A stretch of 64,000 nucleotides of DNA from the IMG/VR virus record IMGVR_UViG_2522572172_000008; one strand, written 5' to 3'. The notes beneath the pieces were generated by a model. It did no database searches and was not told where the DNA came from. It saw only the letters and a program-made list of their open reading frames with translations. The position numbers and the translations under genes were made by a program. This document shows, one piece after another, positions 2 through 19,029 of this stretch (its first letter is position 1; each line of letters begins with the position of its first letter). The DNA comes from an uncultured virus (IMG/VR IMGVR_UViG_2522572172_000008). Its lineage: Duplodnaviria; Heunggongvirae; Uroviricota; Caudoviricetes.

Positions 2-1234
2 AGTAAAGATATTGATGTAGAAATTTACGGTATTACACCTGAAACGTTACGAACTATCTTATCTCAGTTTGGATATGTAGATGAGTTCGGTGCTTTCTTC
101 GGTATTTTAAAAATTTACGGAGTGGATATCGACTTCTCTATGCCCCGTAAAGAGGTAAAGACAGATGATGGCCATACAGGATTCGATGTTGTTGTAGACC
201 CATTCTTGGACACCCTAACAGCCTCAAAACGCAGAGATTTTAGAATGAATGCTATTATGGTAGATGTGTTAACTGAGGAAGTAATTGACCACTTTAATGG
301 TGTCTCTGACATTCAGTTAGGCATCATTCGTCACATTGATGAACATACATTTATTGAAGATGAATTAAGAGCATTTCGAGCTTGTCAATTCGCTTCAAGG
401 TTCAACTTTACAATTGCAGAAGAAACAATTGATTTATGCAAGGGATTTCGATTCTCTCTTCCAAGAGAAAGAATTTTTGAAGAGTTTTTAAAAGCATTAA
501 TGAAAAGCGAAAAACCTTCCATTTTCTTTTCATATATGAGAGAAATGCTTATTGTTAAAAAGTTGTTTCCTGAATTAGATGCATTAATTGATTGCCCTCA
601 AAATCCTATCTTCCACCCTGAAGGTGATGTATGGACACATACAATGATGGTAATTGATGAATTAGCAAGCTTAAAGCATTTATCTTCAAATCCTCTTGCA
701 TTTATGTTGTTGGGACCTACCCATGACATGGGAAAACCTATTACAACTGTTATTCAGGAAGATGGACAGATAACAGCTCGTGGACATGCTGAAGAAGGTG
801 TACCTGTTGCGAAGCAATTTTTGAAGAGAATTACTAATGACAAACGATTAATTAAAAATGTTTTAAATATGGTAGAAAATCATATGAGACCAAACTCAAT
901 TGCATTTGGTTCAGACAAGGCTGTTCGAAAATTAATGGTTGCTACTAACATCGAAGACATTGTGTTGTTCGGAGAAGCAGACCATAAAGGTAGAGGTATT
1001 TCTGAAGAAAAGAAAGATTACACAGAAGTAAAAGAATGGTTCCATCAAAAAATAGAAAAACTGCAAACGGTTGGAGAACAATCTACTATCTCCCCTCTTG
1101 TTTCAGGAAAAGATTTAATTGATGCAGGATTAAAACCTGGTAAAGAATTTAGCATTTTACTGAAAAAAGCATTTGATTTACAAATCGAAAATGGTTTATC
1201 GAAAGAAGAAATTCTTGAAAAAATATTATTATGA
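2..1234 (+). CDS. cca: CCA-adding tRNA nucleotidyltransferase with HD domain, 5'-truncated by window edge
   Basis: Frame is open from nt 2 (SKDIDVEIYG, catalytic DxD). Also RRDFRMNA, EDELRAFRACQF, ERIFEE, HPEGDVWTHT and HDMGKP motifs. Confidence 0.9.
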   Translation, partial: SKDIDVEIYGITPETLRTILSQFGYVDEFGAFFGILKIYGVDIDFSMPRKEVKTDDGHTGFDVVVDPFLDTLTASKRRDFRMNAIMVDVLTEEVIDHFNGVSDIQLGIIRHIDEHTFIEDELRAFRACQFASRFNFTIAEETIDLCKGFRFSLPRERIFEEFLKALMKSEKPSIFFSYMREMLIVKKLFPELDALIDCPQNPIFHPEGDVWTHTMMVIDELASLKHLSSNPLAFMLLGPTHDMGKPITTVIQEDGQITARGHAEEGVPVAKQFLKRITNDKRLIKNVLNMVENHMRPNSIAFGSDKAVRKLMVATNIEDIVLFGEADHKGRGISEEKKDYTEVKEWFHQKIEKLQTVGEQSTISPLVSGKDLIDAGLKPGKEFSILLKKAFDLQIENGLSKEEILEKILL

Positions 1235-1884: not shown

Positions 1885-4800
1885 TTAAATAACCTCGTTG
1901 TTATATGCTCTTGATGTACACTTTGGACAAATGTGTTCACTCCAACCTACTTTACTTGCTAATGTGATAGATAAAGCATTTTGACCGTAAAATTGTTTTG
2001 TTTTTTCATCCCATAAATGCATAGTTGATTCTTCTTTACATGTCGGACATTTAATATTCTTACTCATATAAACCCTCTCCATTTCTTTTATTTTTATTTG
2101 TTATATTCATTATCTAATAAGTCTTTGTTATCATATATATTCCCAATCACTTCAATTGATTCAATAGAATGAAGGTCTCCCCCACCCTCTCCATTTACCT
2201 CAAACCCAAAGTTAGCGTCCGAAAAACAGACTACTCCTTTTACATTGTCATATCCACCATGCCAATGAGATTGACGCTTCCCAACAACAATGTCACCTGC
2301 AAACACCATTTGTTTTTCATCACTTGAATCTTTCAGTCCAATATATTGTCCCACTGATTCAAATTCTACTGGAACAAAACCTTGTCCTGGTGATTCAATA
2401 TAAGCTAAGTTATCTTCATAATTCATTACAGCATTGCCATAAAACCATTTTATATCACCATAATCTTCAATCGGTTTTCCCCTAAACAAAATCACATTTA
2501 TCCACTCCCTCTACTTTTAAAATACACATTTAATATTGCCCAAGCCCAAGACTACTTACGAGAATTTCATTTTCCTCTAAAGCTGATAATTCTGATTTCC
2601 CATGGTCACATTTTGTACAAAGTACATTATGAAACTTACCATTTTCTAAGTAAAAAAGAACATGGTCTCCCTTTTGAATACGGTCTTTACAGTCTCCACA
2701 TTTTAATCTTGATGACCTTGCAATAGAACTATGAATTGTGATACCCATGATATCCCTCTTTCGTTAACATATTTTAGATTCTATGAAACTGATTCTTGTA
2801 CTAAGTTGCATTTCTTACAATAAACCTTTTCTTCTACTACAACTGCGTTTTCCTCAGTACATGTAATTGAGCATTTTTGACATGTAAACCACCAACCGTT
2901 TTTTAACAATTCATTTTTTGGCACATATCCCAAATCAGCATATTTATCAAACTCTATTATCCTACTCGCTCTGATTTCCGTATAATCGCACCATCTATAC
3001 GCTTCACTCTTCACTTTCGCTTTACCAACGGTCTCAGCAAACACTATCTCTTGATTTTCACCATCGCTACCTTGAACATGAAATGCTTTCATAACATACA
3101 CCTACTTCCTTACTAAATACACTTTATATTCTACATTTCTAATACTTTTGCATTTGCTACAGGAAAGATTTTAAACCTCTGGCTTTGTAGCGTTGTTGAT
3201 ACAATAAAAGTATCTATATAGCTGTTCATTTTATTAGCATCTACTGTAACGAGCATACCATTATGCAACTTCACATATACTCCACTCTTGAATCCATCAC
3301 CAAGCATAAAACCCTCTCCATTAAGACACCTTTCAAGCGCTTCCATCAAGGTCAAGTCATATTTTATTTTCATATACATTCCCTCCTTATTTGGATAGAA
3401 CTCTTTTTTGCTTAATTTTATTGAATTACTGCCAATACTCATTATTGAAGTGTTTTCTTCCATACTCTTTTAACGCTTGGAGTTTGTTAATCATTTCATC
3501 AATATCGCAAATATGAATAGACATTGTATCTTCTCCTGTTTTATCCTCACGGGGTTTAACACCATTAAAACCAATGCTGTAATCAATACACCCATCCTTT
3601 TTCAAAATCACTTCATCAGTACCAAACTCCTCATCCCCTAAAACGATATTTCCACCTTCATATTCATGAATCTTTTTAAACATAATATTTCCCTCCCTGT
3701 ATAAGACTTAATTTTTCCGAGAGTTAATCTCTTTCAAATTTAAATGCAAATGAGTAAACATCTTTCCAGTCAATTCCATAGCATCTTCAGCACTAATTTC
3801 TTTCTGGATGTATTTTCGTTGTATTTCTGCTTGATATTCAATAAACTCAAGCATGTTCAATGATTTTTCTTGTATAATTGCATCCATAATTTATTCACTC
3901 CTATTTGTAATCTACAAATCTTTGAAAGTTAATAATCTTTACTTCATCATACTTATACTTATTCTTAATTCTTGTTTGAACTTCTTTTATCCATAACATG
4001 CCCTTTTCAGATGGGTGTTCAAATATATTAATGTGGTCATTATCAATGCCACGAAAACAACCATTTGTATATGAATACGATACAAAATAATCATAGTCCA
4101 TCACCTTATATGTTCCACTTCTAACCTTTTTTACATCTTCTTCTGTATATCCCATACGCAATAAATAACTACATTGCTTACACAGTTCTGATAAGCATTC
4201 AGATTCATCTACATTACAAATCCTGCATTTCACTTATCTTCACCTTCATCATAATCAGTAATTTGATAACCATCTTTTTTTGTATAGGTTACTGTTGCAA
4301 TAACTTTCTCTTTTTTAATTAAATCTTTATCTGAATACATTCTAATGGTAATTTTTTTATCCCTATTTTCATCTTTAACGATATTCTCTGCAACCGACTT
4401 CAAATTCTCTGGTGTTAAAAACTCATCAACAAGCACCGCATAATTTGCATCATCTTTTGTAATGTCTTTATGCACAACCGTAAACTCACTACCCGTAGGA
4501 TGATTTGCTTTTTCAATTGATTTGTTCATCGCATGAATTTTATAGAATGAAAAAATTGCAATGACCGAAAATAAGGTATAGATTATATTTTTTAATCTCT
4601 TAATTTTTTTTAGTTCCATGACGGCCACAGCTCCTTATCTTCGAAAAGAATGTCAACATCTTCTTTTTGTCTTTCATCCAAATCGTCATAATTCTCTTTG
4701 AACCATTTGATTTGAGCTTGTGTAATTTGATAAGTATGATTCTCATCAATAAGAAAACCTACAAAACCTCTCGAAATCGGAATGTAGTTCTTGAATCGTT

Positions 4801-8619: not shown

Positions 8620-9114
8620 TTAAATATTTGAAGCTTTTCTTGTTTCTTTATTCAAAGCTTTGATTACTAATTTCTGCTCTTTTAGTAATTGTTTAAGGTT
8701 TCTTCCTTCAATATTTCGCTTCTGTAAACCAACTGTATTGATTCTTGTATAATCATCAGACAATCTACTTACGTTATAAAATAAAGTAAATGATTGTTGA
8801 ATATCTTTAGTACGAATCATGCCATCTACACGAATGCTATTTCTCTCTATTTTTTGCTTCTTATATGTAACAGCACCTACCATTTGTTGATGTACCTGAA
8901 TAGTAAAATATCTACCATCATATACATTTACTTCATTTAAAAAATCAATATTAAAGTTTTCAATGAAATTCTTAATCGCAGATGCAATTACTTCTTCGTT
9001 CTCTAAGTACGCTTGCTTTTCTGCTGAACAAAATTCCATTACACCGTTATTACAAATCATTGAACCTTTTTTTCTTAATAATGAATTAATCGCATTAATC
9101 ATCATATAAAACAC
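8620..9114 (-). CDS. Hypothetical protein
   Basis: ORF with GAGGAG RBS, followed by terminator-like hairpin ~8587-8619. Confidence 0.6.
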   Translation of the reverse strand: MFYMMINAINSLLRKKGSMICNNGVMEFCSAEKQAYLENEEVIASAIKNFIENFNIDFLNEVNVYDGRYFTIQVHQQMVGAVTYKKQKIERNSIRVDGMIRTKDIQQSFTLFYNVSRLSDDYTRINTVGLQKRNIEGRNLKQLLKEQKLVIKALNKETRKASNI

Positions 9115-9159
9115 TCCTCTTTTTTAATTAAATGAATACCTGAATTTAGATTAACTTAA

Positions 9160-9441
9160 TTAAGCAACTTGTTCTGCAAAAAATCCTGGTTTATACCACG
9201 AACGTAATACACCAGGTGTTTCTTTTGTTTTTACCTGAACAAAGTATTTAGATTCTTTATATGATGGTTTATTTGATACAATGTTTACATACTTCATTTC
9301 ATCACGATTCTTAGCATTATCAGCTACAACCTCTGCTTCTTCGTAAGAATCACATTCAAAAATCACCTTATTAACTTTTCCTTCTGATTCTCCCCAATCA
9401 CCTAAATATGTGTCTGTCATTGTTACATAATACTTTTTCAT
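9160..9441 (-). CDS. Hypothetical protein
   Basis: ORF with GGGAG RBS and promoter motif 2 upstream. Confidence 0.65.
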   Translation of the reverse strand: MKKYYVTMTDTYLGDWGESEGKVNKVIFECDSYEEAEVVADNAKNRDEMKYVNIVSNKPSYKESKYFVQVKTKETPGVLRSWYKPGFFAEQVA

Positions 9442-9884
9442 AATAAAATCTCTCCCTATTAAATAAATTTATCAAATACCTGTTTTGTTATAATCCATAT
9501 ATTATAGATATTTCCCTCCATAAATATAAAAAAAGTCGAGATTTATTTTTTCAACCTTTACTATGTTACAGAATAAAGTTTTCCTTTTCTTTCAGAACCT
9601 TACCATTCTTTTCTACCTCTAAAACCTCAAATCCCCACCACAATAAAAAAGAAGACACTTTAAAAGTATCTTCTTTTATTGATTATACAGCTAACCTTTC
9701 CCTCGGATAACTCGCCAATCACGCACGATAACATCATTATATACATGTAAATTAATTTCATTCTTATTCTTGGTGTTTTTTTACATATATAAAATAACTT
9801 ATTATAGTAAATAATATTTTACTAACTTCTTATTTCATGTTATAATAAATTATGAAACAAATACATTATTACGAGGTGGTAAAT

Positions 9885-10085
9885 ATGAAGAAAATGACAA
9901 TTAAAATTGAAGGTGGACATTGGAAATCTAAAATTGACAATATCCATGAGCATTTAAATGAAGTAAACCGAGGGAACGGGAAACACCGTACAAAAAAAGG
10001 AAAAGGTTCTTATTCTCGCAAAAACAAACACAAGGAGCGTTACGACTCATCATCTGATAAACGTAACGCTCCTTTTAATTTATAA
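9885..10085 (+). CDS. arfA: ArfA-like alternative ribosome-rescue factor (66 aa)
   Basis: HRTKKGKGSYSRKNKH matches the ArfA core KKGKGSYxRKxKH; GAGGTGG RBS; TG-TATAAT promoter at 9838-9846. Confidence 0.7.
   Translation: MKKMTIKIEGGHWKSKIDNIHEHLNEVNRGNGKHRTKKGKGSYSRKNKHKERYDSSSDKRNAPFNL
10032..10081 (+). terminator. 13-bp hairpin plus U-rich tract inside the arfA-like ORF, before the stop codon; possibly bidirectional
   Basis: AAGGAGCGTTACG (10032-10044) / CGTAACGCTCCTT (10062-10074), then TTAATTT; stop codon at 10083-10085. Confidence 0.75.
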
Positions 10086-10575
10086 TTTGTGTTGTTCCGT
10101 CATCATTTATTTTTATCATGCCTACATAACTACCTTTGTATAATAGTTGAGCAGAATAAGAATTCGAGAATAGAAGTAATCCATTTCTATCATCTTGGAT
10201 TTTAAAAGCGGTCCCTTCACATAACCCCTCTAATATCTTTTTATATAAGGTATTCTTCTTATATATATACACATCATCATATTCATACCATTTTGTTGTA
10301 TACGCTTTTAAACATTGTTTTAAATACATTTGCCTGGGAATTCCCTCATCTTTTTGCTCTTGATATGAAAGCTCAATCCCTTCTAATATAGATTCTTTAT
10401 TTTCTTCTAAATACGCATCTTTTACCTTCTCTTCAATTTTATTTCTATCAATATTGTCTACAATTTCAGCCTTAACAGGATTTATAAGTAGATGCCCATA
10501 TTCACCATTATATGTAAGCAAAAAATCAGTTGGAATATCCATTAATTTATCTATCAGTCTCTTTTGTTTTCTCAT
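10075..10575 (-). CDS. Hypothetical protein
   Basis: ORF with AAGGGG RBS. Confidence 0.6.
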   Translation of the reverse strand: MRKQKRLIDKLMDIPTDFLLTYNGEYGHLLINPVKAEIVDNIDRNKIEEKVKDAYLEENKESILEGIELSYQEQKDEGIPRQMYLKQCLKAYTTKWYEYDDVYIYKKNTLYKKILEGLCEGTAFKIQDDRNGLLLFSNSYSAQLLYKGSYVGMIKINDDGTTQIIN

Positions 10576-10743
10576 TACTACATCCCCTTTCTTTTATTTT
10601 TTACAGTGCATTATAGATGATAGTCATTAAAAATATGCACGAATTGAAATAATAAGAAAGTCTGATGATAAAACATGTATGTTTCATATTCTTCTCATTG
10701 ACTATATATAATACAATATATTGAATTTTGAGGAGGATTTGCT

Positions 10744-11268
10744 ATGAAATTAAACAAGAAAATCAAGACTTTTTTAGAAAATAAAAAAGGTGTTGCTACG
10801 ATTGAAATTGCGATATGTGCCATGTTATTCATCATTGCAATTGGAGCTTTTATTGACTTGTCTGCTATATTAAGTAAAATAAATTCCATTTCATCTACAA
10901 ATGCCTATGTTTCACGGGTCGTTGGAGCTCAAGGTGGTGTAAAAACAAGAACGCCTGAAAATTTCAAAGGTGAATACATTCATTCCAAAGAACTATACCA
11001 AAACGTTAAAAATTCCTTAGAGCGTTCTGGATTAAAAGAATCTGATTGGAGTATGTATATTGATGGTAGACGATTAACAAGTAGTATAAACGTTCCACTA
11101 AAAGACTATGGTAATGAAATCACGATTAAATTAAAAACTAATTTAAAATGGGATTTATTAAGCAATTTCATCCCTGGAGACTTAACGAATAATCAAACAT
11201 CAGAGAGAACCGTTGTTTCTTCATTCAAAGTTAGAACTGGAGATGTAAAATCCGAATATAAACAATAA
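10744..11268 (+). CDS. TadE-like pseudopilin
   Basis: Prepilin-type KKG|VATIE followed by a hydrophobic helix. Confidence 0.7.
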   Translation: MKLNKKIKTFLENKKGVATIEIAICAMLFIIAIGAFIDLSAILSKINSISSTNAYVSRVVGAQGGVKTRTPENFKGEYIHSKELYQNVKNSLERSGLKESDWSMYIDGRRLTSSINVPLKDYGNEITIKLKTNLKWDLLSNFIPGDLTNNQTSERTVVSSFKVRTGDVKSEYKQ

Positions 11269-12185: not shown

Positions 12186-14972
12186 TTATTCACTTTGCGT
12201 ATTTGATTGCAAAGGTTGTTCTTCTACTTTCGGAAGAGTAGGTTGCACTTCAGTTTGAGATTGAGCTTGGTCTTGTGATGTATTTACCTCTTGGCCATCT
12301 TGCGGAACTATTGGATTTTCATTCACCGTATTTGGTGTTGGTTGACTCACATTTTGTTTCGCTTTATTTACTTCTTTTTCTTTTTGAGATGCTTCAATTT
12401 CTCTTTTCTTTGCATCTTCAATTCTTTTTTGCTCTGCCATCTTCTTCGCTTCTTCAACCTCTTTCAATCTTCGTTCCTCTTCCAAGCGTTTTCTTTCTTC
12501 TTCTTGTTTCCTTCTTTCTTCAGCTAACTTTTCTTGTCTGATTTTCTCTTCTAAATTAGCTTTATCTCGTGCCACTTTACGTAACGATTTATTGAATTCT
12601 ACTTTTAAATCATCGTATGCTGATTTGTGTTTCACTCTATCCAATCGTTTCCAACCATCTTCTTCTAATGTTTTAACCGCATCATATTGTGAAGGTTCTG
12701 TAGCTGAGAAATCATTAATTTGAGTGATTAACTCTTTCATGTATCGCTCTCGTTCTAACTCTTCAGATTTCGTTAGTCCATGAATAATACGATAGTCTTC
12801 AGCATCTAAACGTTCTTGTTGAGCATTTGTTTCTTTTCGAATTCGTTTTGACTCATTACGTTCACGCACATTTTGTTTTTGCTTCACAGTATATAAGCTA
12901 TTAACCAATTTACCATCTTGTACGAAAACAGTATCTGGTTTTTCAAAGTCTTTGACTTCTAAACCTTCATGAATTTGTTCCATGAACTTCCTCCAGATAT
13001 CCATTGTTGTAATACTAATAGAGTTTGATTGTTCTTGCGGTGTATCATCACCCGTATACACAGCGGTTGTATAATAAGGTGTATATCCTACAAACCAAGA
13101 ATCTTTATTGCTATCAGTTGTACCCGTTTTACCAACCGCAAACGGATAATTACTCATATTAGCTTGTTTACCTGTACCTTGGTCTCCATGAAGTACAGAA
13201 CGCATAGTATCTGTCATTAAATAAGAAGCACCTTTGTCATATACTTTTACTGTTTTTTTGTCATTTTCATAAATCACGTCATTTGTAGATAAGAATGTAA
13301 TCTTTCTAACATTTGTTGGACGAATGAATTGACCACTTCTTGCAATTGTAGAATATCCAGAAGCCATTTCTACTGTTGTAGCCCCTCTTGTTAAACCACC
13401 CACTGCAATAATTGGATTGTTATCTTGTGGTGTTAAATATTTAAATTCCATATTAGTAAGATACTGCGTTATTGTATTACCACCAAATTCAGATGCTAAT
13501 TTAAACGGTATCGTATTGATAGAGCTTTCTAAGGCATGTCTAACAGTCACTGCCCCTCTATATCCTCTGTACCAGTTTCTCGGTCCCTTAGGAACTTCAC
13601 TATCCTCAAGCACACTATCTGGTGAATAACCTCTTTCAAAGGCAGGAGTATATGCAACTAAAGGTTTCATTGTAGAACCTGGTTGTCTGGCTCCTAAATA
13701 TGCTCTATTGAAGTTATTTCCTTCTTGTGTTCTACCACCAACAATTGCAACAACTTCTCCAGTTGTATTATCTATTGTTGTTACTGCTGATTGTTTTTTA
13801 TAAATCCCAGAATTCGGGTCTTTTTCTCTGAACTTCTTCATTTCAGCATCTACAACGTTTTGAAGTTCTTCTTGTTTTTTAGGGTCAATAGATGTTTCAA
13901 TTTTAAATCCACCCATTACAATTTTCTGACGCATTTCATCATATTTTTCTTGGTACTTCTCAAAATATGCTTTTCTGTCTGCATCATCTTTGAATTGATA
14001 ACGGAAATTAAAACCATCCTCTTCCATCAACACTTTTACAGCGTTATCAATGGCATACGTAAGGGCACTTCCTTCAATCTGATTATTAATTGTATTCGGA
14101 TTTACATTTAACCCTAATTCTTCAGCCACAGCTTCCTTATACTCTTTTTCACCTATATAGCCAAGTTCTTTCATTTTAAATAAAATGATATTTCTTCTTT
14201 TCTTCGCTTTTGCAGGATTTTTTACAGGGTCATAAATACTTGGGTTATTTGGAACACCTGCGAGCATCGCTACTTCTGAAAGCTTCAAATCTTTAGCTGA
14301 CTTACTAAAATAGTATTGTGAAGCTGTTTCAATTCCATATTTACCATGACCGAAATAAATGTTATTTACATAGAATTCCATAATCTCTTTTTTAGAGTAT
14401 TTTTCTTCTAATTCTTGAGCAATTACCATCTCTTCGATTTTTCGCCACATCGTCCTATCCATTGTTAAAAAGACATTCTTTGTTAACTGTTGTGTAATCG
14501 TAGAGCCACCTTGTACGGTTCCTCCACCACTTTTAACAAACGTATATACAGAACGTAGTAAACCTTTAAAATCAATTCCTCTATGGTCATAGAAACGCTC
14601 ATCCTCAATGGAAACAAATGCTTTCTCAATAAATGGACTCATATCTTTAGAAGAAACATATGAAAATTCTTGTGCTTTTAGTTCTTTTAATATATTCCCA
14701 TCTTTATCAAGAATCTGTGTTGATTTCTTACTATTAAATGTCGAAGCATTAATTTTACTTACTTTGTCATACCCTTTTGTGATAGACTTAGCAATTTCAT
14801 CTCCATACTTATAATAGCCATACCCGAAAACACCACTTGCGCCAATGAGTGATACTAAACTTGTTCCTAAGAAGAATTTCAAGACCTTTCTTTTTTTAGA
14901 GGTCTTTTTCTTTTTCTTCTTCTGCTCCTTCACTTTCTTTATACCTCGTTCTTCTCTGGTTTCCATAAACAA
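12186..14972 (-). CDS. Class A penicillin-binding protein (transglycosylase/transpeptidase) with coiled-coil tail
   Basis: EDERFYDHRG, GGSTITQQL and RKIEE GT51 motifs; STMK, SIN and KTG transpeptidase motifs. Confidence 0.93.
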   Translation of the reverse strand: MFMETREERGIKKVKEQKKKKKKTSKKRKVLKFFLGTSLVSLIGASGVFGYGYYKYGDEIAKSITKGYDKVSKINASTFNSKKSTQILDKDGNILKELKAQEFSYVSSKDMSPFIEKAFVSIEDERFYDHRGIDFKGLLRSVYTFVKSGGGTVQGGSTITQQLTKNVFLTMDRTMWRKIEEMVIAQELEEKYSKKEIMEFYVNNIYFGHGKYGIETASQYYFSKSAKDLKLSEVAMLAGVPNNPSIYDPVKNPAKAKKRRNIILFKMKELGYIGEKEYKEAVAEELGLNVNPNTINNQIEGSALTYAIDNAVKVLMEEDGFNFRYQFKDDADRKAYFEKYQEKYDEMRQKIVMGGFKIETSIDPKKQEELQNVVDAEMKKFREKDPNSGIYKKQSAVTTIDNTTGEVVAIVGGRTQEGNNFNRAYLGARQPGSTMKPLVAYTPAFERGYSPDSVLEDSEVPKGPRNWYRGYRGAVTVRHALESSINTIPFKLASEFGGNTITQYLTNMEFKYLTPQDNNPIIAVGGLTRGATTVEMASGYSTIARSGQFIRPTNVRKITFLSTNDVIYENDKKTVKVYDKGASYLMTDTMRSVLHGDQGTGKQANMSNYPFAVGKTGTTDSNKDSWFVGYTPYYTTAVYTGDDTPQEQSNSISITTMDIWRKFMEQIHEGLEVKDFEKPDTVFVQDGKLVNSLYTVKQKQNVRERNESKRIRKETNAQQERLDAEDYRIIHGLTKSEELERERYMKELITQINDFSATEPSQYDAVKTLEEDGWKRLDRVKHKSAYDDLKVEFNKSLRKVARDKANLEEKIRQEKLAEERRKQEEERKRLEEERRLKEVEEAKKMAEQKRIEDAKKREIEASQKEKEVNKAKQNVSQPTPNTVNENPIVPQDGQEVNTSQDQAQSQTEVQPTLPKVEEQPLQSNTQSE

Positions 14973-16909: not shown

Positions 16910-17770
16910 TTAGTTTTTAAAAGAACACAATTCAATTGTTGAATTTAAATTTAAGAATCGTAATACCTTTTCATTCACTACTTCAAAATCAACTTCCCCT
17001 GGATAGTTATTGTTGTACCAAGTCTTTGTAGGAATATCAAAGTATACTGTTCCGTATTTTTTCTTATCATTGATATTTACGTACTGTCGCTTCATTAATT
17101 TGGTACTGGAAACTTTCTTTTCCCAATACTTTACTCGTTTCACAAAGATTTCAGGCTGAGAACTCTTCTGAACAGATTGAACTTTGATTGGTTCTTCTTC
17201 CACCTCAGGTATTTCACTTGCAAACCTGCGTTTGAGCTCTAATAAACAATAGCCAGTCGCTTCTGCATCCTCGTATGCTCTATGACGATTCTTATTCAAA
17301 TAGCCAAACGTTGTACAAAAATCATCAAGCTTATATTTTCCTTTGTTAGGACAAAAATGTTGAAATACTGCAACGCTATCTAACACTTCATTTTTTGGAT
17401 GGATACCTACTTTTTCAAAATAAAACAATAAGAATCTATTCCAATCAAACTTTGCATTATGGGCTACAACTAAAAAACCATCAATAAATTGTTGAAAAAC
17501 GGGTAACACCTGACCGTAGACTGGCTTTCCTTGAACCATATCATTTGTAATCCCTGTTAATTTTGTAATGTTCGCAGGGATTTTCATTTCAGGATTAATC
17601 AATTGACTATACTTATCTACCACTTTACCGTCAATGTATTTTACAGCACCAATTTCTGTAATGCGTCCACCCTTCACTGGAGAGAATGCAGTTGTTTCAA
17701 TATCCAATACTACAAAATTGTTACGTCCTAATAGATTAAGCATTTTTTGTGTTTCTTTTTTTGTCGCCAT
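16910..17770 (-). CDS. DEDDh 3'-5' exonuclease (Pol III epsilon/PolC exo-like)
   Basis: DIETT, HNAKFD and HRAYED motifs. Confidence 0.9.
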   Translation of the reverse strand: MATKKETQKMLNLLGRNNFVVLDIETTAFSPVKGGRITEIGAVKYIDGKVVDKYSQLINPEMKIPANITKLTGITNDMVQGKPVYGQVLPVFQQFIDGFLVVAHNAKFDWNRFLLFYFEKVGIHPKNEVLDSVAVFQHFCPNKGKYKLDDFCTTFGYLNKNRHRAYEDAEATGYCLLELKRRFASEIPEVEEEPIKVQSVQKSSQPEIFVKRVKYWEKKVSSTKLMKRQYVNINDKKKYGTVYFDIPTKTWYNNNYPGEVDFEVVNEKVLRFLNLNSTIELCSFKN

Positions 17771-18249: not shown

Positions 18250-19029
18250 TTATTCATGTTTAATACACTCCTTTTTAATTTCAACAATCCTTTGACCATC
18301 CAAGCCAATTGAAATATCAATTATTAGGAAATTCACTTCATAAAGCATCTCAATTTGCTTTTCTGTATTAGGCATAGCTCTTAGACGATTTAACATACGC
18401 AACCCAAAATTCCTCGCAGATGTTGCCAGAATTGAACTACCGCCATGTAAACCCGATGTTACTGCAAGGAAATCCTCATCAGCCATTAATTCGCCAACAA
18501 TTAATCTGGATGGCTCATTAGAATCTTGCAAGAATCGTAAACTCCTCATACTAAAATCTCCGTCATCTCGAATAAGAATCTTCTTATTCTCAAAATCAAT
18601 ATTGGGCGAAATTTCAGGATAATTTTCTATTACCACTGACTTTCGTTCTGGGAATCTCTCTAATTGATACTTAAATAAAGCATTTAATAATACAGTCTTT
18701 CCCACTCCAGTAGTTCCTGTAATTACTATATTTTTATTTTCTTGAATCGCCTTTTTAATTTCTTCTATTTGTACAGATAAGAGATAATCACAACTATCAA
18801 GACTTTCCAATGAAAACGTTTCATTTTCTAATATAGAACGAATCCACTTTCCATTACGTAACGTTTTTACATATTCCTCATTCTTCATCCGTTCGTCATT
18901 ATACGTGTCTGGATTATTCAGTGCCATTTCGAGTAGCCTCGTCAATGGCTCCACACCTTCCTTCCTTAACAGTTCAATTAATCCTTGTTCTTTCGTATCC
19001 AATCTCATTACTTTTGTTTGTTCTTTCAT
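18250..19029 (-). CDS. P-loop ATPase, VirB11/CpaF secretion-ATPase-like
   Basis: GTTGVGKT, VVIENYPEI and LIVGEL motifs. Confidence 0.65.
   Translation of the reverse strand: MKEQTKVMRLDTKEQGLIELLRKEGVEPLTRLLEMALNNPDTYNDERMKNEEYVKTLRNGKWIRSILENETFSLESLDSCDYLLSVQIEEIKKAIQENKNIVITGTTGVGKTVLLNALFKYQLERFPERKSVVIENYPEISPNIDFENKKILIRDDGDFSMRSLRFLQDSNEPSRLIVGELMADEDFLAVTSGLHGGSSILATSARNFGLRMLNRLRAMPNTEKQIEMLYEVNFLIIDISIGLDGQRIVEIKKECIKHE

What the first reader, a model, noticed from the sequence alone, without database searches (positions are those of the whole stretch)
9838..10085. Mobile-element ArfA-like ribosome-rescue gene with built-in non-stop-mRNA control
Seen: a 66-aa basic ORF with KKGKGSYSRKNKH, followed at once, inside the ORF, by a perfect 13-bp stem and U-rich tract ending before the stop codon. 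Established: E. coli ArfA carries KKGKGSY-RK-KH and is made from a truncated non-stop mRNA so that tmRNA represses it; B. subtilis uses the distinct BrfA with an intragenic terminator. Inference: an ArfA-type factor in a Bacillus-like mobile element with BrfA-style regulation, a backup when trans-translation is overwhelmed or mRNA/tRNA is cut by host toxins.
Basis: partly seen in the sequence, partly recalled or inferred. Interest (0 to 1): 0.85.

Follow-up and report, generated by a model that had tools for sequence, protein, structure and literature searches.

The report
Plasmid ArfA-like ribosome-rescue gene
A tiny gene on a Bacillus thuringiensis megaplasmid carries the ribosome-binding signature of the back-up ribosome-rescue factor ArfA, and a transcription terminator sits just before its stop codon, so it is probably a self-limiting rescue factor of a Gram-positive and phage branch that has not been described.

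Summary
Window 9885-10085 (+) encodes a 66-aa basic protein with KKGKGSYSRKNKH, 11 of 13 residues identical to E. coli ArfA. A perfect 13-bp hairpin (10032-10044/10062-10074) lies inside the ORF, and 8 U-rich bases separate it from the stop codon.

The window is B. thuringiensis Bt407 plasmid BTB_502p, where the gene is annotated as hypothetical.

Only the C-terminal mRNA-channel motif matches ArfA (Pfam PF03889 18.9 bits, cut-off 25.5). The N-terminal half is a different module. It is shared with an uncharacterised family (phrog_37108) found in Enterococcus phages, Clostridia chromosomes and phage tRNA arrays.

A hairpin ending before the stop codon recurs in:
- 5 of 11 close-family loci, three of which I checked and found to have no convergent gene;
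- 19 of 24 loci of a related Clostridium family;
- 8 of 10 true arfA loci.

So the non-stop-mRNA reading is well supported by comparison. No transcript 3' end, tmRNA tagging or release-factor dependence could be tested. In this locus the hairpin is also the terminator of the convergent gene.

I rate it a new variant of a known kind. Reviews and a 2024 survey confine ArfA to proteobacteria. This scan has noted similar phage ArfA-like genes on other DNA.

The parts
9818..9846 (+). promoter-like site TTTACT, 17 nt, TATAAT, with TG before the -10 hexamer
   Evidence: 10 of 12 matches; a consensus match only, and promoter-like sites are not enriched over shuffles
9873..9879 (+). Shine-Dalgarno GAGGTGG, 5 nt before the ATG
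   Evidence: read
9885..10085 (+). ArfA-like ORF, 66 aa plus TAA (P0001; RefSeq WP_000738845.1, hypothetical protein)
   Evidence: phrog_37108 at 1.8e-10; Pfam ArfA at 0.001
9993..10031 (+). codons for KKGKGSYSRKNKH (residues 37-49), the ArfA-type mRNA-channel motif
   Evidence: 11 of 13 residues identical to E. coli ArfA residues 33-45
10032..10074 (.). 13-bp perfect hairpin (arms 10032-10044 and 10062-10074, 17-nt loop) inside the ORF; works as a terminator stem on both strands
10075..10082 (+). U-rich tail TTAATTTA between the stem and the stop codon; predicted 3' ends fall here
   Evidence: read; the rule that 3' ends lie 7-9 nt after the stem is established knowledge, and the ends were not measured
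10083..10085 (+). TAA stop codon, predicted to be missing or incomplete in terminated transcripts
   Evidence: inference
10015..10031 (-). T-rich tail (GTGTTTGTTTTTGCG, complement of 10017-10031) of the same hairpin for the convergent gene
   Evidence: read
10075..10575 (-). convergent 166-aa ORF of unknown function; overlaps the ArfA-like ORF by 11 nt and ends against the stem
   Evidence: no Pfam or PHROG family

Best explanation
The gene encodes a small release-factor-dependent ribosome-rescue factor of the ArfA type, held in check by its own message.

Proposed mechanism:
1. Transcription starts at the gene's own promoter and stops at the bidirectional intrinsic terminator inside the ORF, about 10079-10083, before a complete TAA is copied.
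2. Ribosomes translating this non-stop mRNA stall at its 3' end. tmRNA-SmpB normally tags the nascent chain for degradation, so little protein accumulates.
3. When trans-translation is saturated or absent, the roughly 63-65-residue product is released and accumulates.
4. Its basic segment KKGKGSYSRKNKHK lodges in the empty mRNA entry channel of other stalled ribosomes.
5. Its N-terminal strand-helix module (TIKIEGG...IDNIHEHLNEVNRG) recruits a class-I release factor, probably RF2, which hydrolyses the peptidyl-tRNA.

Shown here: the ORF, the motif, the hairpin geometry, and the recurrence of this layout in relatives. Inferred: the transcript end, tmRNA control, ribosome binding, the release-factor partner and the rescue activity.
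For: (1) Motif. It is 11 of 13 residues identical to E. coli ArfA and sits at nearly the same distance from the N-terminus (37-49 against 33-45). The top 6 of 9 PDB hits are ArfA. The family profile hits ArfA at 6.7e-5. All 17 of 17 members hit PF03889 at E <= 1. hhalign of this family against 7 true ArfAs gives 96.6% probability over 20 columns. Structural work cited in PMC6299226 (passages read) places the KGKGS segment in the empty mRNA channel.

(2) Real, conserved gene. 19 proteins at E <= 0.001 among 1.84 billion representatives, with invariant G32 K38 G39 G41 S42 R45. The exact sequence occurs on 65 contigs, and all named cluster members come from the B. cereus group.

(3) Hairpin. z = -4.3. 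The stop codon starts 8 nt after the stem.

(4) The same layout in relatives with unrelated stem sequences:
- 5 of 11 loci of the close family (this window, L003, L004, L005, L006). L003, L004 and L005 have a co-directional gene downstream and no convergent one.
- 19 of 24 Clostridium-type loci. There the stem is 97.7% paired across 19 sequences and 2 pairs show compensatory change.
- 8 of 10 true arfA loci scored by the same script.

(5) Variants within the B. cereus group change N-terminal and loop-coded residues. The one change in a stem arm (R60C, CGT to TGT) would keep a G-U pair.

(6) Translation-related company. Phage relatives sit inside tRNA gene arrays, and one lies about 400 nt from a phage tmRNA.

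(7) Transcription. An RNA-seq contig covers 9727-10525 at depth 84, between stretches of depth 0-3.

(8) The design is proven for brfA and arfA (PMC6881298 and PMC8012679, passages read).
Against: - The Pfam ArfA score (18.9 bits) is below the cut-off (25.5), and only 16 residues align. NCBIfam gives no hit.
- The N-terminal half shows no similarity to ArfA's RF2-contacting part, so release-factor recruitment is pure inference.
- The terminator is atypical: a 17-nt loop and a U-tract broken by AA. The tool's terminator scan did not list it.
- The stop codon lies only 8 nt past the stem, so a share of transcripts may include it. Truncated and full-length proteins would differ by at most 2-3 residues.
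- In this locus the hairpin is needed anyway as the terminator of the convergent gene.
- In the close family, 2 of 11 loci have the stop codon inside the hairpin (L007, L122), one has only a weak hairpin after the stop (L008), and 3 are short with no hairpin (L009, and L002/L038, which encode the same phage protein). The non-stop layout is therefore not universal.
- No 3'-end data. The RNA contig spans both convergent genes, and three raw-read RNA runs did not contain the plasmid.
- The AlphaFold2 model is weak: pLDDT 66, with a single helix at residues 20-27.
Confidence: 0.6

Rival explanations
1. It is an ArfA-like ribosome-binding protein made from an ordinary, stop-containing mRNA. The hairpin is just the shared bidirectional terminator of two convergent genes that happen to overlap, and the protein is made constitutively, as the 48-aa Enterococcus phage homologue is.
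For: - The convergent ORF ends directly against the stem, and the minus strand has its own T-tail.
- The stop codon is only 8 nt after the stem.
- Phage homologues (L002/L038) have an ordinary stop 4 codons after the motif and no hairpin.
- L007 and L122 keep the stop codon inside the terminator.
Against: - Intrinsic terminators usually release RNA 7-9 nt after the stem, which here falls before a complete TAA.
- The hairpin-before-stop layout recurs in L003, L004 and L005, where no convergent gene exists, and in 19 of 24 Clostridium-type loci.
- The peptide encoded by the 3' arm is not conserved between relatives (RNAPF against TSCFY), while the pairing is.
Confidence: 0.22
2. It is a plug of the mRNA channel rather than a rescue factor. 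The motif brings the protein to ribosomes or 30S subunits with an empty channel, but the novel N-terminus does not recruit a release factor. Instead it blocks or parks ribosomes, acting as a translation inhibitor or hibernation-like factor used by plasmids and phages.
For: - Only the channel-binding motif is shared with ArfA; the N-terminal module is unrelated.
- Many carriers are phages and a plasmid.
Against: - Feedback through a non-stop mRNA makes sense for a rescue factor and has been described only for ArfA and BrfA (PMC6881298, PMC8012679, passages read).
- Chromosomal copies sit among housekeeping-type genes in Clostridia.
- Phage copies lie among tRNA and tmRNA genes, which support translation.
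Confidence: 0.1
3. It is a chance ORF, or a non-functional remnant with a fortuitous basic motif.
For: It is annotated only as hypothetical. The protein is very small and basic.
Against: - It has conserved relatives with invariant motif residues across Bacillota and phages.
- It has a good ribosome-binding site and promoter-like site.
- The region is covered by an RNA-seq contig.
Confidence: 0.03

Closest known systems
ArfA (YhdL) of E. coli and other beta/gamma-proteobacteria, Pfam PF03889
   Same: - Small basic protein.
- KKGKGSYxRKxKH motif at the same position (11 of 13 identical).
- Hairpin inside the ORF before the stop codon.
- Expected repression by trans-translation.
   Different: - The N-terminal half (Pfam model positions 1-28, the RF2-contacting part) does not align. 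The score is 18.9 bits against the 25.5 cut-off, where a true ArfA scores 90.
- The host is a Gram-positive and the gene is on a plasmid.
- Here the hairpin looks like an intrinsic terminator. That E. coli arfA is cut by RNase III is recalled, not tested here.
BrfA (YqkK) of Bacillus subtilis
   Same: - Bacillus host.
- A rho-independent terminator within the coding region before the stop codon, so the protein is made from non-stop mRNA and kept low by tmRNA (PMC6881298, passages read).
- Similar size (72 aa encoded, about 62 made).
   Different: - No sequence similarity was found. No BrfA chain appeared in PDB searches at E <= 10.
- BrfA is reported to have no obvious similarity to Arf proteins, whereas this protein has the ArfA motif.
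- BrfA is chromosomal and limited to a subset of Bacillaceae.
phrog_37108 (uncharacterised phage protein family) and the Enterococcus phage 48-aa proteins (VRE9_1-4, EF1, EF5, H1)
   Same: Direct sequence family: 1.8e-10 to the PHROG, with 17 of 17 relatives matching; 48-49% identity over residues 5-54 to the phage proteins.
   Different: The phage proteins end 4 residues after the motif at their own stop codon and have no hairpin. No function is assigned to the PHROG.
Clostridium-type small proteins (L010-L033), and the Aneurinibacillus plasmid protein WP_272443985.1, which is auto-annotated 'ArfA'
   Same: - Share EIxRGxG plus the motif (hhalign 98.8% over 28 columns).
- Intragenic hairpin before the stop in 19 of 24 loci.
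   Different: - Different N-terminal 25 residues.
- Chromosomal: 7 of 12 genomes of one genus and 17 of 121 of the family that were searched.
- Some pass the Pfam cut-off and so are named ArfA by the annotation pipeline.
ArfT of Francisella tularensis
   Same: A small factor with a related basic stretch (KKGGSTNKK) that recruits a release factor to non-stop ribosomes (PMC6299226, passages read).
   Different: The family is different, no non-stop regulation is described for it, and it can use RF1 or RF2.

Membership tests
ArfA (PF03889) | Whole-protein score above Pfam's gathering cut-off (25.5 bits), covering the 44-position model | tested here: not met
   18.9 bits, E = 0.001; only residues 35-50 align, to model positions 29-44. 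A true ArfA (L034) scores 90.3 bits over positions 2-44.
ArfA (PF03889) | [quoted passage not shown] | tested here: met
   KKGKGSYSRKNKH against E. coli KKGKGSYMRKGKH, 11 of 13 identical; profile hit to ArfA chains at 6.7e-5. Binding itself was not tested.
ArfA (PF03889) | N-terminal region homologous to the RF2-contacting part of ArfA | tested here: not met
   HMMER and hhalign alignments stop at the motif: 20 columns, and none N-terminal of 'V-x-K'.
ArfA (PF03889) | Hairpin within the ORF that removes the stop codon from the mRNA | tested here: inconclusive
   The hairpin and its geometry are present and recur in relatives. The transcript 3' end could not be measured.
ArfA (PF03889) | RF2-dependent peptidyl-tRNA hydrolysis on non-stop ribosomes; synthetic lethality with ssrA | not testable with these tools
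   Needs biochemistry or genetics.
BrfA (YqkK) | Sequence similarity to B. subtilis BrfA | tested here: not met
   No BrfA chain among the PDB hits at E <= 10, with the single protein or with the profile. I did not verify that the PDB copy holds a BrfA chain, so this is a weak negative.
BrfA (YqkK) | Rho-independent terminator inside the coding region, upstream of the stop codon | tested here: met
   13-bp stem plus U-rich tail ending 8 nt before TAA. This is a sequence-level prediction only.
phrog_37108 | Significant full-length match to the family profile | tested here: met
   E = 1.8e-10, residues 7-54 on profile positions 2-48 of 48.

The most novel reading that the evidence does not exclude
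The Bt-plasmid protein, its relatives in Clostridia chromosomes and Enterococcus phages, the Clostridium-type family and the small proteins in phage tRNA arrays together form a Gram-positive and phage branch of an ArfA superfamily. This branch keeps the ribosome mRNA-channel motif but has a new N-terminal module for recruiting a release factor. It has repeatedly evolved ways to lose its stop codon: an intragenic terminator, a hairpin ending at the stop, and in one case a stop codon inside a tRNA gene. Plasmids and phages would carry it to keep ribosomes available when trans-translation is saturated, for example after nuclease-based defence or toxin action. This would overturn the published view that ArfA-type factors are confined to proteobacteria plus BrfA in a few Bacillus species.
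Probability: 0.4. Interest if true: 0.75.

Novelty: new variant of a known kind. Interest (0 to 1): 0.6.

Why it matters
Reviews and a 2024 survey of more than 15,000 genomes state that ArfA is restricted to beta/gamma-proteobacteria and that BrfA occurs in about 10 species of the B. subtilis group (PMC11633108 and PMC8012679, passages read). B. cereus-group bacteria and Clostridia are thought to rely on tmRNA and RqcH.

A plasmid-borne factor with the ArfA motif and its own non-stop switch, with relatives in Clostridia chromosomes and in phage tRNA/tmRNA clusters, would mean three things:
- Release-factor-dependent back-up rescue is much more widespread than reported.
- The N-terminal release-factor-recruiting part is interchangeable.
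- Mobile elements carry rescue factors.

It also offers natural test cases for how non-stop autoregulation evolves, because both stop-less and stop-bearing versions exist in one family. Ribosome rescue is under study as an antibiotic target, so unrecognised back-up factors are relevant there.

Tried and rejected
Binding to a release factor therefore remains untested.
- AlphaFold2 on the 17-sequence alignment: pLDDT 66, pTM 0.29, one helix. Too weak for a fold search, so none was run.
- RNA evidence. One RNA-seq run kept as contigs covers 9727-10525 in a single contig that spans both convergent genes, so it says nothing about 3' ends or strand. Three raw-read RNA runs with the same species label had 0 reads on the stretch, because the plasmid is not in those strains.
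- The window's own genome is not held. The host's tmRNA, SmpB, RF2 and RqcH could not be checked directly.
- Degenerate-pattern search for D-N-I-H-E-H-L in viral contigs (15 stretches) and metagenome contigs (99 stretches): only 1 stretch (L122) held a family member. The rest were chance matches.
- Rfam on 9000-11000: 3 sub-threshold matches on the minus strand over the hairpin (best 26.9 bits against a gathering score of 55.8). No known RNA family.
- NCBIfam: no model matches this protein, its relatives, or even a true ArfA.
- A class-wide search for true ArfA gave only 2 of 81 genomes. I used the order-level search instead (9 of 41).
- A preprint listing with 18 occurrences of 'ArfA' in an Enterococcus phage paper (PMC10680825) has no such term in the current version. 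It appears to be a name coincidence and was not used.
- Literature searches for ArfA with phage, Clostridium, BrfA, KGKGS or phage-encoded found no study of this family. They found only genome-annotation mentions of an ArfA domain in phages (PMC12753301, passage read; PMC8953757, listing only). No supplementary files were opened. The supplementary tables of PMC11633108 and Supplementary Fig. 2 of PMC6881298 could list hits that bear on the claim of restricted distribution.

Full report
**What is there**

The window matches Bacillus thuringiensis Bt407 plasmid BTB_502p (NC_018878.1, 501,911 bp) at 100% identity. Window 9000-11000 corresponds to record positions 320971-322971.

On the plus strand, a promoter-like site (TTTACT, 17 nt, TATAAT with a preceding TG, 9818-9846) and a GAGGTGG ribosome-binding site (9873-9879) precede an ORF from ATG 9885 to TAA 10083-10085. 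It encodes the 66-residue protein MKKMTIKIEGGHWKSKIDNIHEHLNEVNRGNGKHRTKKGKGSYSRKNKHKERYDSSSDKRNAPFNL. RefSeq calls the same ORF a hypothetical protein.

Immediately after the codons for KKGKGSYSRKNKH (9993-10031) comes a perfect 13-bp inverted repeat, 10032-10044 with 10062-10074, with 7 G-C pairs and a 17-nt loop that holds a small inner stem. The region folds far better than shuffles: -25.5 against -13.8 kcal/mol, z = -4.3, 0 of 200 shuffles as good. After the stem come TTAATTTA and then TAA. My earlier notebook coordinates for the 3' arm were off by one, and I corrected them from the ruler.

Two caveats apply:
- The simple terminator scan did not list the hairpin, because that scan allows loops of only 3-8 nt.
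- A convergent 166-aa ORF (10075-10575, minus strand) ends right against the stem, and the minus strand has its own T-rich tail. The hairpin is a bidirectional terminator and would be expected here even without any special role for the small gene.

**What the protein is**

Against Pfam, the only hit with E below 0.01 is ArfA (PF03889): E = 0.001, 18.9 bits, below the 25.5-bit cut-off. It covers residues 35-50 on model positions 29-44 of 44. NCBIfam has nothing.

Against all PDB chains, the six best of nine hits are E. coli ArfA, aligned KKGKGSYSRKNKH to KKGKGSYMRKGKH.

A scan of 1.84 billion representative proteins found 19 proteins at E <= 0.001. Most are 50-65-residue proteins with the consensus IKIKGGYxxxKIDNIHxHLQEINRGxGxxKPKKGKGSYxRKxKHK and invariant G32 K38 G39 G41 S42 R45.
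- All 17 aligned members hit Pfam ArfA at E <= 1, best 2.4e-6.
- All 17 hit the uncharacterised phage family phrog_37108, best 3.6e-23.
- A profile of the 17 hits ArfA chains in the PDB at 6.7e-5, again over the motif only.

Profile-profile comparison with 7 true ArfA sequences taken from Enterobacterales-order genomes gives 96.6% probability over just 20 columns.

So the protein shares with ArfA the segment that, according to structural work cited in PMC6299226 (passages read), lies in the empty mRNA channel. Its N-terminal half is a different module. No BrfA chain appeared in either PDB search at E <= 10.

**Relatives and where they live**

The exact protein is on 65 contigs. Its 90% cluster has 17 sequences, and the four named ones are all 'hypothetical protein' from the B. 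cereus group, on contigs of about 490-503 kb. In the plasmid collection only the source record carries it.

Homologues at 48-49% identity are encoded by seven Enterococcus phages of about 134-142 kb. There the protein is 48 aa, stops 4 residues after the motif, and has no hairpin.

Scans of one genome per species and of IMG/VR viral contigs returned 35 and 21 confirmed loci. They fall into five groups:
- Close relatives in an Alloiococcus chromosome and in Clostridia or Bacillota genomes (L003-L009), whose neighbours look like ordinary chromosomal genes: MCP, DsbD, glyoxalase, GNAT, cyclophilin.
- A Clostridium-type family (..LNxRKFxxSEIxRGTGIxKxKKGKGSYTRKN..). It is present in 7 of 12 genomes of one genus and 17 of 121 genomes sampled from the family.
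- Small proteins (..EELQxYLQFKRRG...KKGKGSY..) of 96-145-kb phage contigs.
- Two further short phage types.
- True ArfA of Aggregatibacter.

hhalign links the Bt-type to the Clostridium type at 98.8% over 28 columns, and to the phage tRNA-array type at 97.9% over 39 columns. These three therefore share more with each other than with proteobacterial ArfA.

Fifteen non-proteobacterial proteins scanned against Pfam score 17.6-27.5 bits on ArfA, and 4 of the 15 pass the cut-off. An Aneurinibacillus plasmid member that scores 26.5 bits is named 'alternative ribosome rescue factor ArfA' by automatic annotation.

**Is the hairpin-before-stop layout meaningful?**

I scored every locus with one script for a hairpin (dG <= -8 kcal/mol, T-rich tail) lying between the motif and 45 nt past the stop codon, and I inspected folds by eye.

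Close family, 11 loci:
- This window, L003, L004, L005 and L006 have a strong hairpin (-18 to -35 kcal/mol) ending 4-43 nt before the stop codon.
- L007 and L122 have the stop codon inside the terminator.
- L008 has only a weak hairpin after the stop.
- L009 and L002/L038 (the last two encode the same protein) are short and have no hairpin.

The stems are unrelated in sequence. Here the stem is GGAGCGTTACG/CGTAACGCTCC; in L003 it is CAGGAGGTAT/ATACCTCCTG. The 5' arms encode homologous residues (K-E/N-R-Y-D), while the 3' arms encode unrelated peptides (RNAPF against TSCFY). The pairing is conserved and the peptide is not.

L003, L004 and L005 have a co-directional gene downstream and no convergent gene. 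A neighbour's need for a terminator therefore cannot explain the layout in general.

Clostridium type: 19 of 24 loci have the stem ending at least 4 nt before the stop. In three the stop directly follows the stem, one has no hairpin, and one was ambiguous. Across 19 aligned sequences the 14-bp stem is 97.7% paired, against 38-50% when one arm is slid by 1-3 columns. Two pairs show compensatory changes, in 7 cells.

True arfA, scored the same way: 8 of 10 loci (four are near-identical Aggregatibacter sequences).

Within the B. cereus-group cluster, substitutions fall in the N-terminus and the loop-coded residues. The single change in an arm (R60C) would turn a G-C pair into G-U (the DNA of that variant was not seen).

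**Expression**

One RNA-seq run, kept as assembled contigs, has a 799-nt contig over 9727-10525 at depth 84. The flanks have depths of 1114, 2.8, 0 and 698. That argues for transcription rather than DNA carry-over. The contig spans both convergent genes, so it shows neither strand nor 3' end. Three raw-read runs of the species did not contain the plasmid. The key prediction, that 3' ends lie before 10085, remains untested.

**Mechanism proposed**

Intrinsic terminators usually release RNA 7-9 nt after the stem (established knowledge). Here that is about 10079-10083, short of a complete TAA.
1. Ribosomes would run to the end of the message.
2. tmRNA-SmpB would tag and destroy the product.
3. 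The product would accumulate only when trans-translation is overwhelmed.
4. It would then bind stalled ribosomes through the ArfA-type motif and bring in a release factor through its own N-terminal module.

This is exactly the logic demonstrated for brfA, which has a terminator inside the ORF, a product of about 62 of 71 codons, SsrA-dependent degradation and RF2 dependence (PMC6881298, passages read), and for arfA (PMC8012679, passages read). Because the N-terminus is new, the release-factor partner (RF2, RF1 or either, as for ArfT) is open.

I put this reading at about 0.6. The rivals are:
- the same protein made from an ordinary message, with the hairpin merely a shared terminator (0.22);
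- a channel plug that inhibits rather than rescues (0.1);
- a meaningless ORF (0.03).

**Comparison with what is known, and novelty**

The literature I could search states that ArfA is limited to beta/gamma-proteobacteria and BrfA to a subset of Bacillaceae (PMC8012679, PMC6881298). [quoted passage not shown]

Six full-text searches found no study of ArfA-like factors in the B. cereus group, Clostridia, plasmids or Gram-positive phages. They found only annotation-level mentions of an ArfA domain in a pelagiphage (PMC12753301, passage read) and, by listing only, in a Citromicrobium phage paper. I did not open any supplementary files.

Databases partly know the family: phrog_37108, and a few members auto-named ArfA. 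This scan's own notes list eight earlier AI findings of ArfA-like or BrfA-like stop-less small genes in phages, a Vallitaleaceae clostridium and Leptospira. These are unverified notes on other DNA. They agree with what I found independently but are not evidence.

I therefore class the finding as a new variant of a known kind: it keeps the ArfA ribosome-binding motif and the ArfA/BrfA regulatory trick, with a new N-terminal module, in a Gram-positive plasmid.

**Verdict**

Interest 0.6.

Noticed in passing
L055:2971-3190: In a 125-kb phage contig, the ArfA-like ORF (2971-3129) runs into a tRNA-His gene (3115-3190), so its stop codon lies inside the tRNA. 5' processing of the tRNA would leave a stop-less message. 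This would be a different route to the same non-stop design.
   Followed up: partly
L047:2959-3855 (also L046, L049, L050, L058, L035): ArfA-like small ORFs of large phage contigs sit inside arrays of 12-18 tRNA genes. In L047 a phage tmRNA (3510-3855) lies about 400 nt downstream. Several arrays include suppressor-type tRNAs (anticodon cta in some, tta in L035).
   Followed up: partly
L045:3073-3237, L054:3022-3189: Here the hairpin's 5' arm is the motif codons (YTRKQK) and its 3' arm ends exactly at the stop codon. There is no U-tract, and a tRNA-Val gene starts about 25 nt later. This looks like a processing hairpin rather than a terminator.
   Followed up: no
L010-L033 (Clostridium chromosomes), L059 (Aneurinibacillus plasmid): A chromosomal Clostridium family of 60-80-aa proteins carries the ArfA motif. 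The conserved codons for Y-T-R-K-N themselves form the 5' arm of a conserved 14-bp intragenic terminator stem. The family is present in 7 of 12 genomes of one genus and 17 of 121 of the family sampled.
   Followed up: partly
window 122-1234 (+): A plasmid-borne protein with poly(A) polymerase/CCA-adding head, RNA-binding and HD domains, that is, a tRNA nucleotidyltransferase-like enzyme, lies about 9 kb from the ArfA-like gene. It is another gene for upkeep of the translation apparatus on the plasmid. RefSeq names it only 'HD domain-containing protein'.
   Followed up: no
window 12186-14972 (-): A 928-aa class-A penicillin-binding-protein-like gene (transglycosylase plus transpeptidase domains) with a long Lys/Glu-rich C-terminal tail. 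It sits in a block with a T2SS/T4SS-type ATPase (18250-19029) and an RNase T-like exonuclease (16910-17770), which suggests a conjugation-type region.
   Followed up: no
window 9160-9441 (-): The 93-aa neighbour matches phrog_5423 (unknown function) at 9.8e-33, and a YopX-family gene lies at 2094-2495. Phage-type genes are therefore mixed into this part of the megaplasmid.
   Followed up: no
P0004 (no DNA seen): An 85-aa variant from a public assembly is identical to this protein up to residue 38 and then goes out of frame, exactly within the KKGKGS codons (an A/G-rich run). It may be a frameshift or an assembly error.
   Followed up: no
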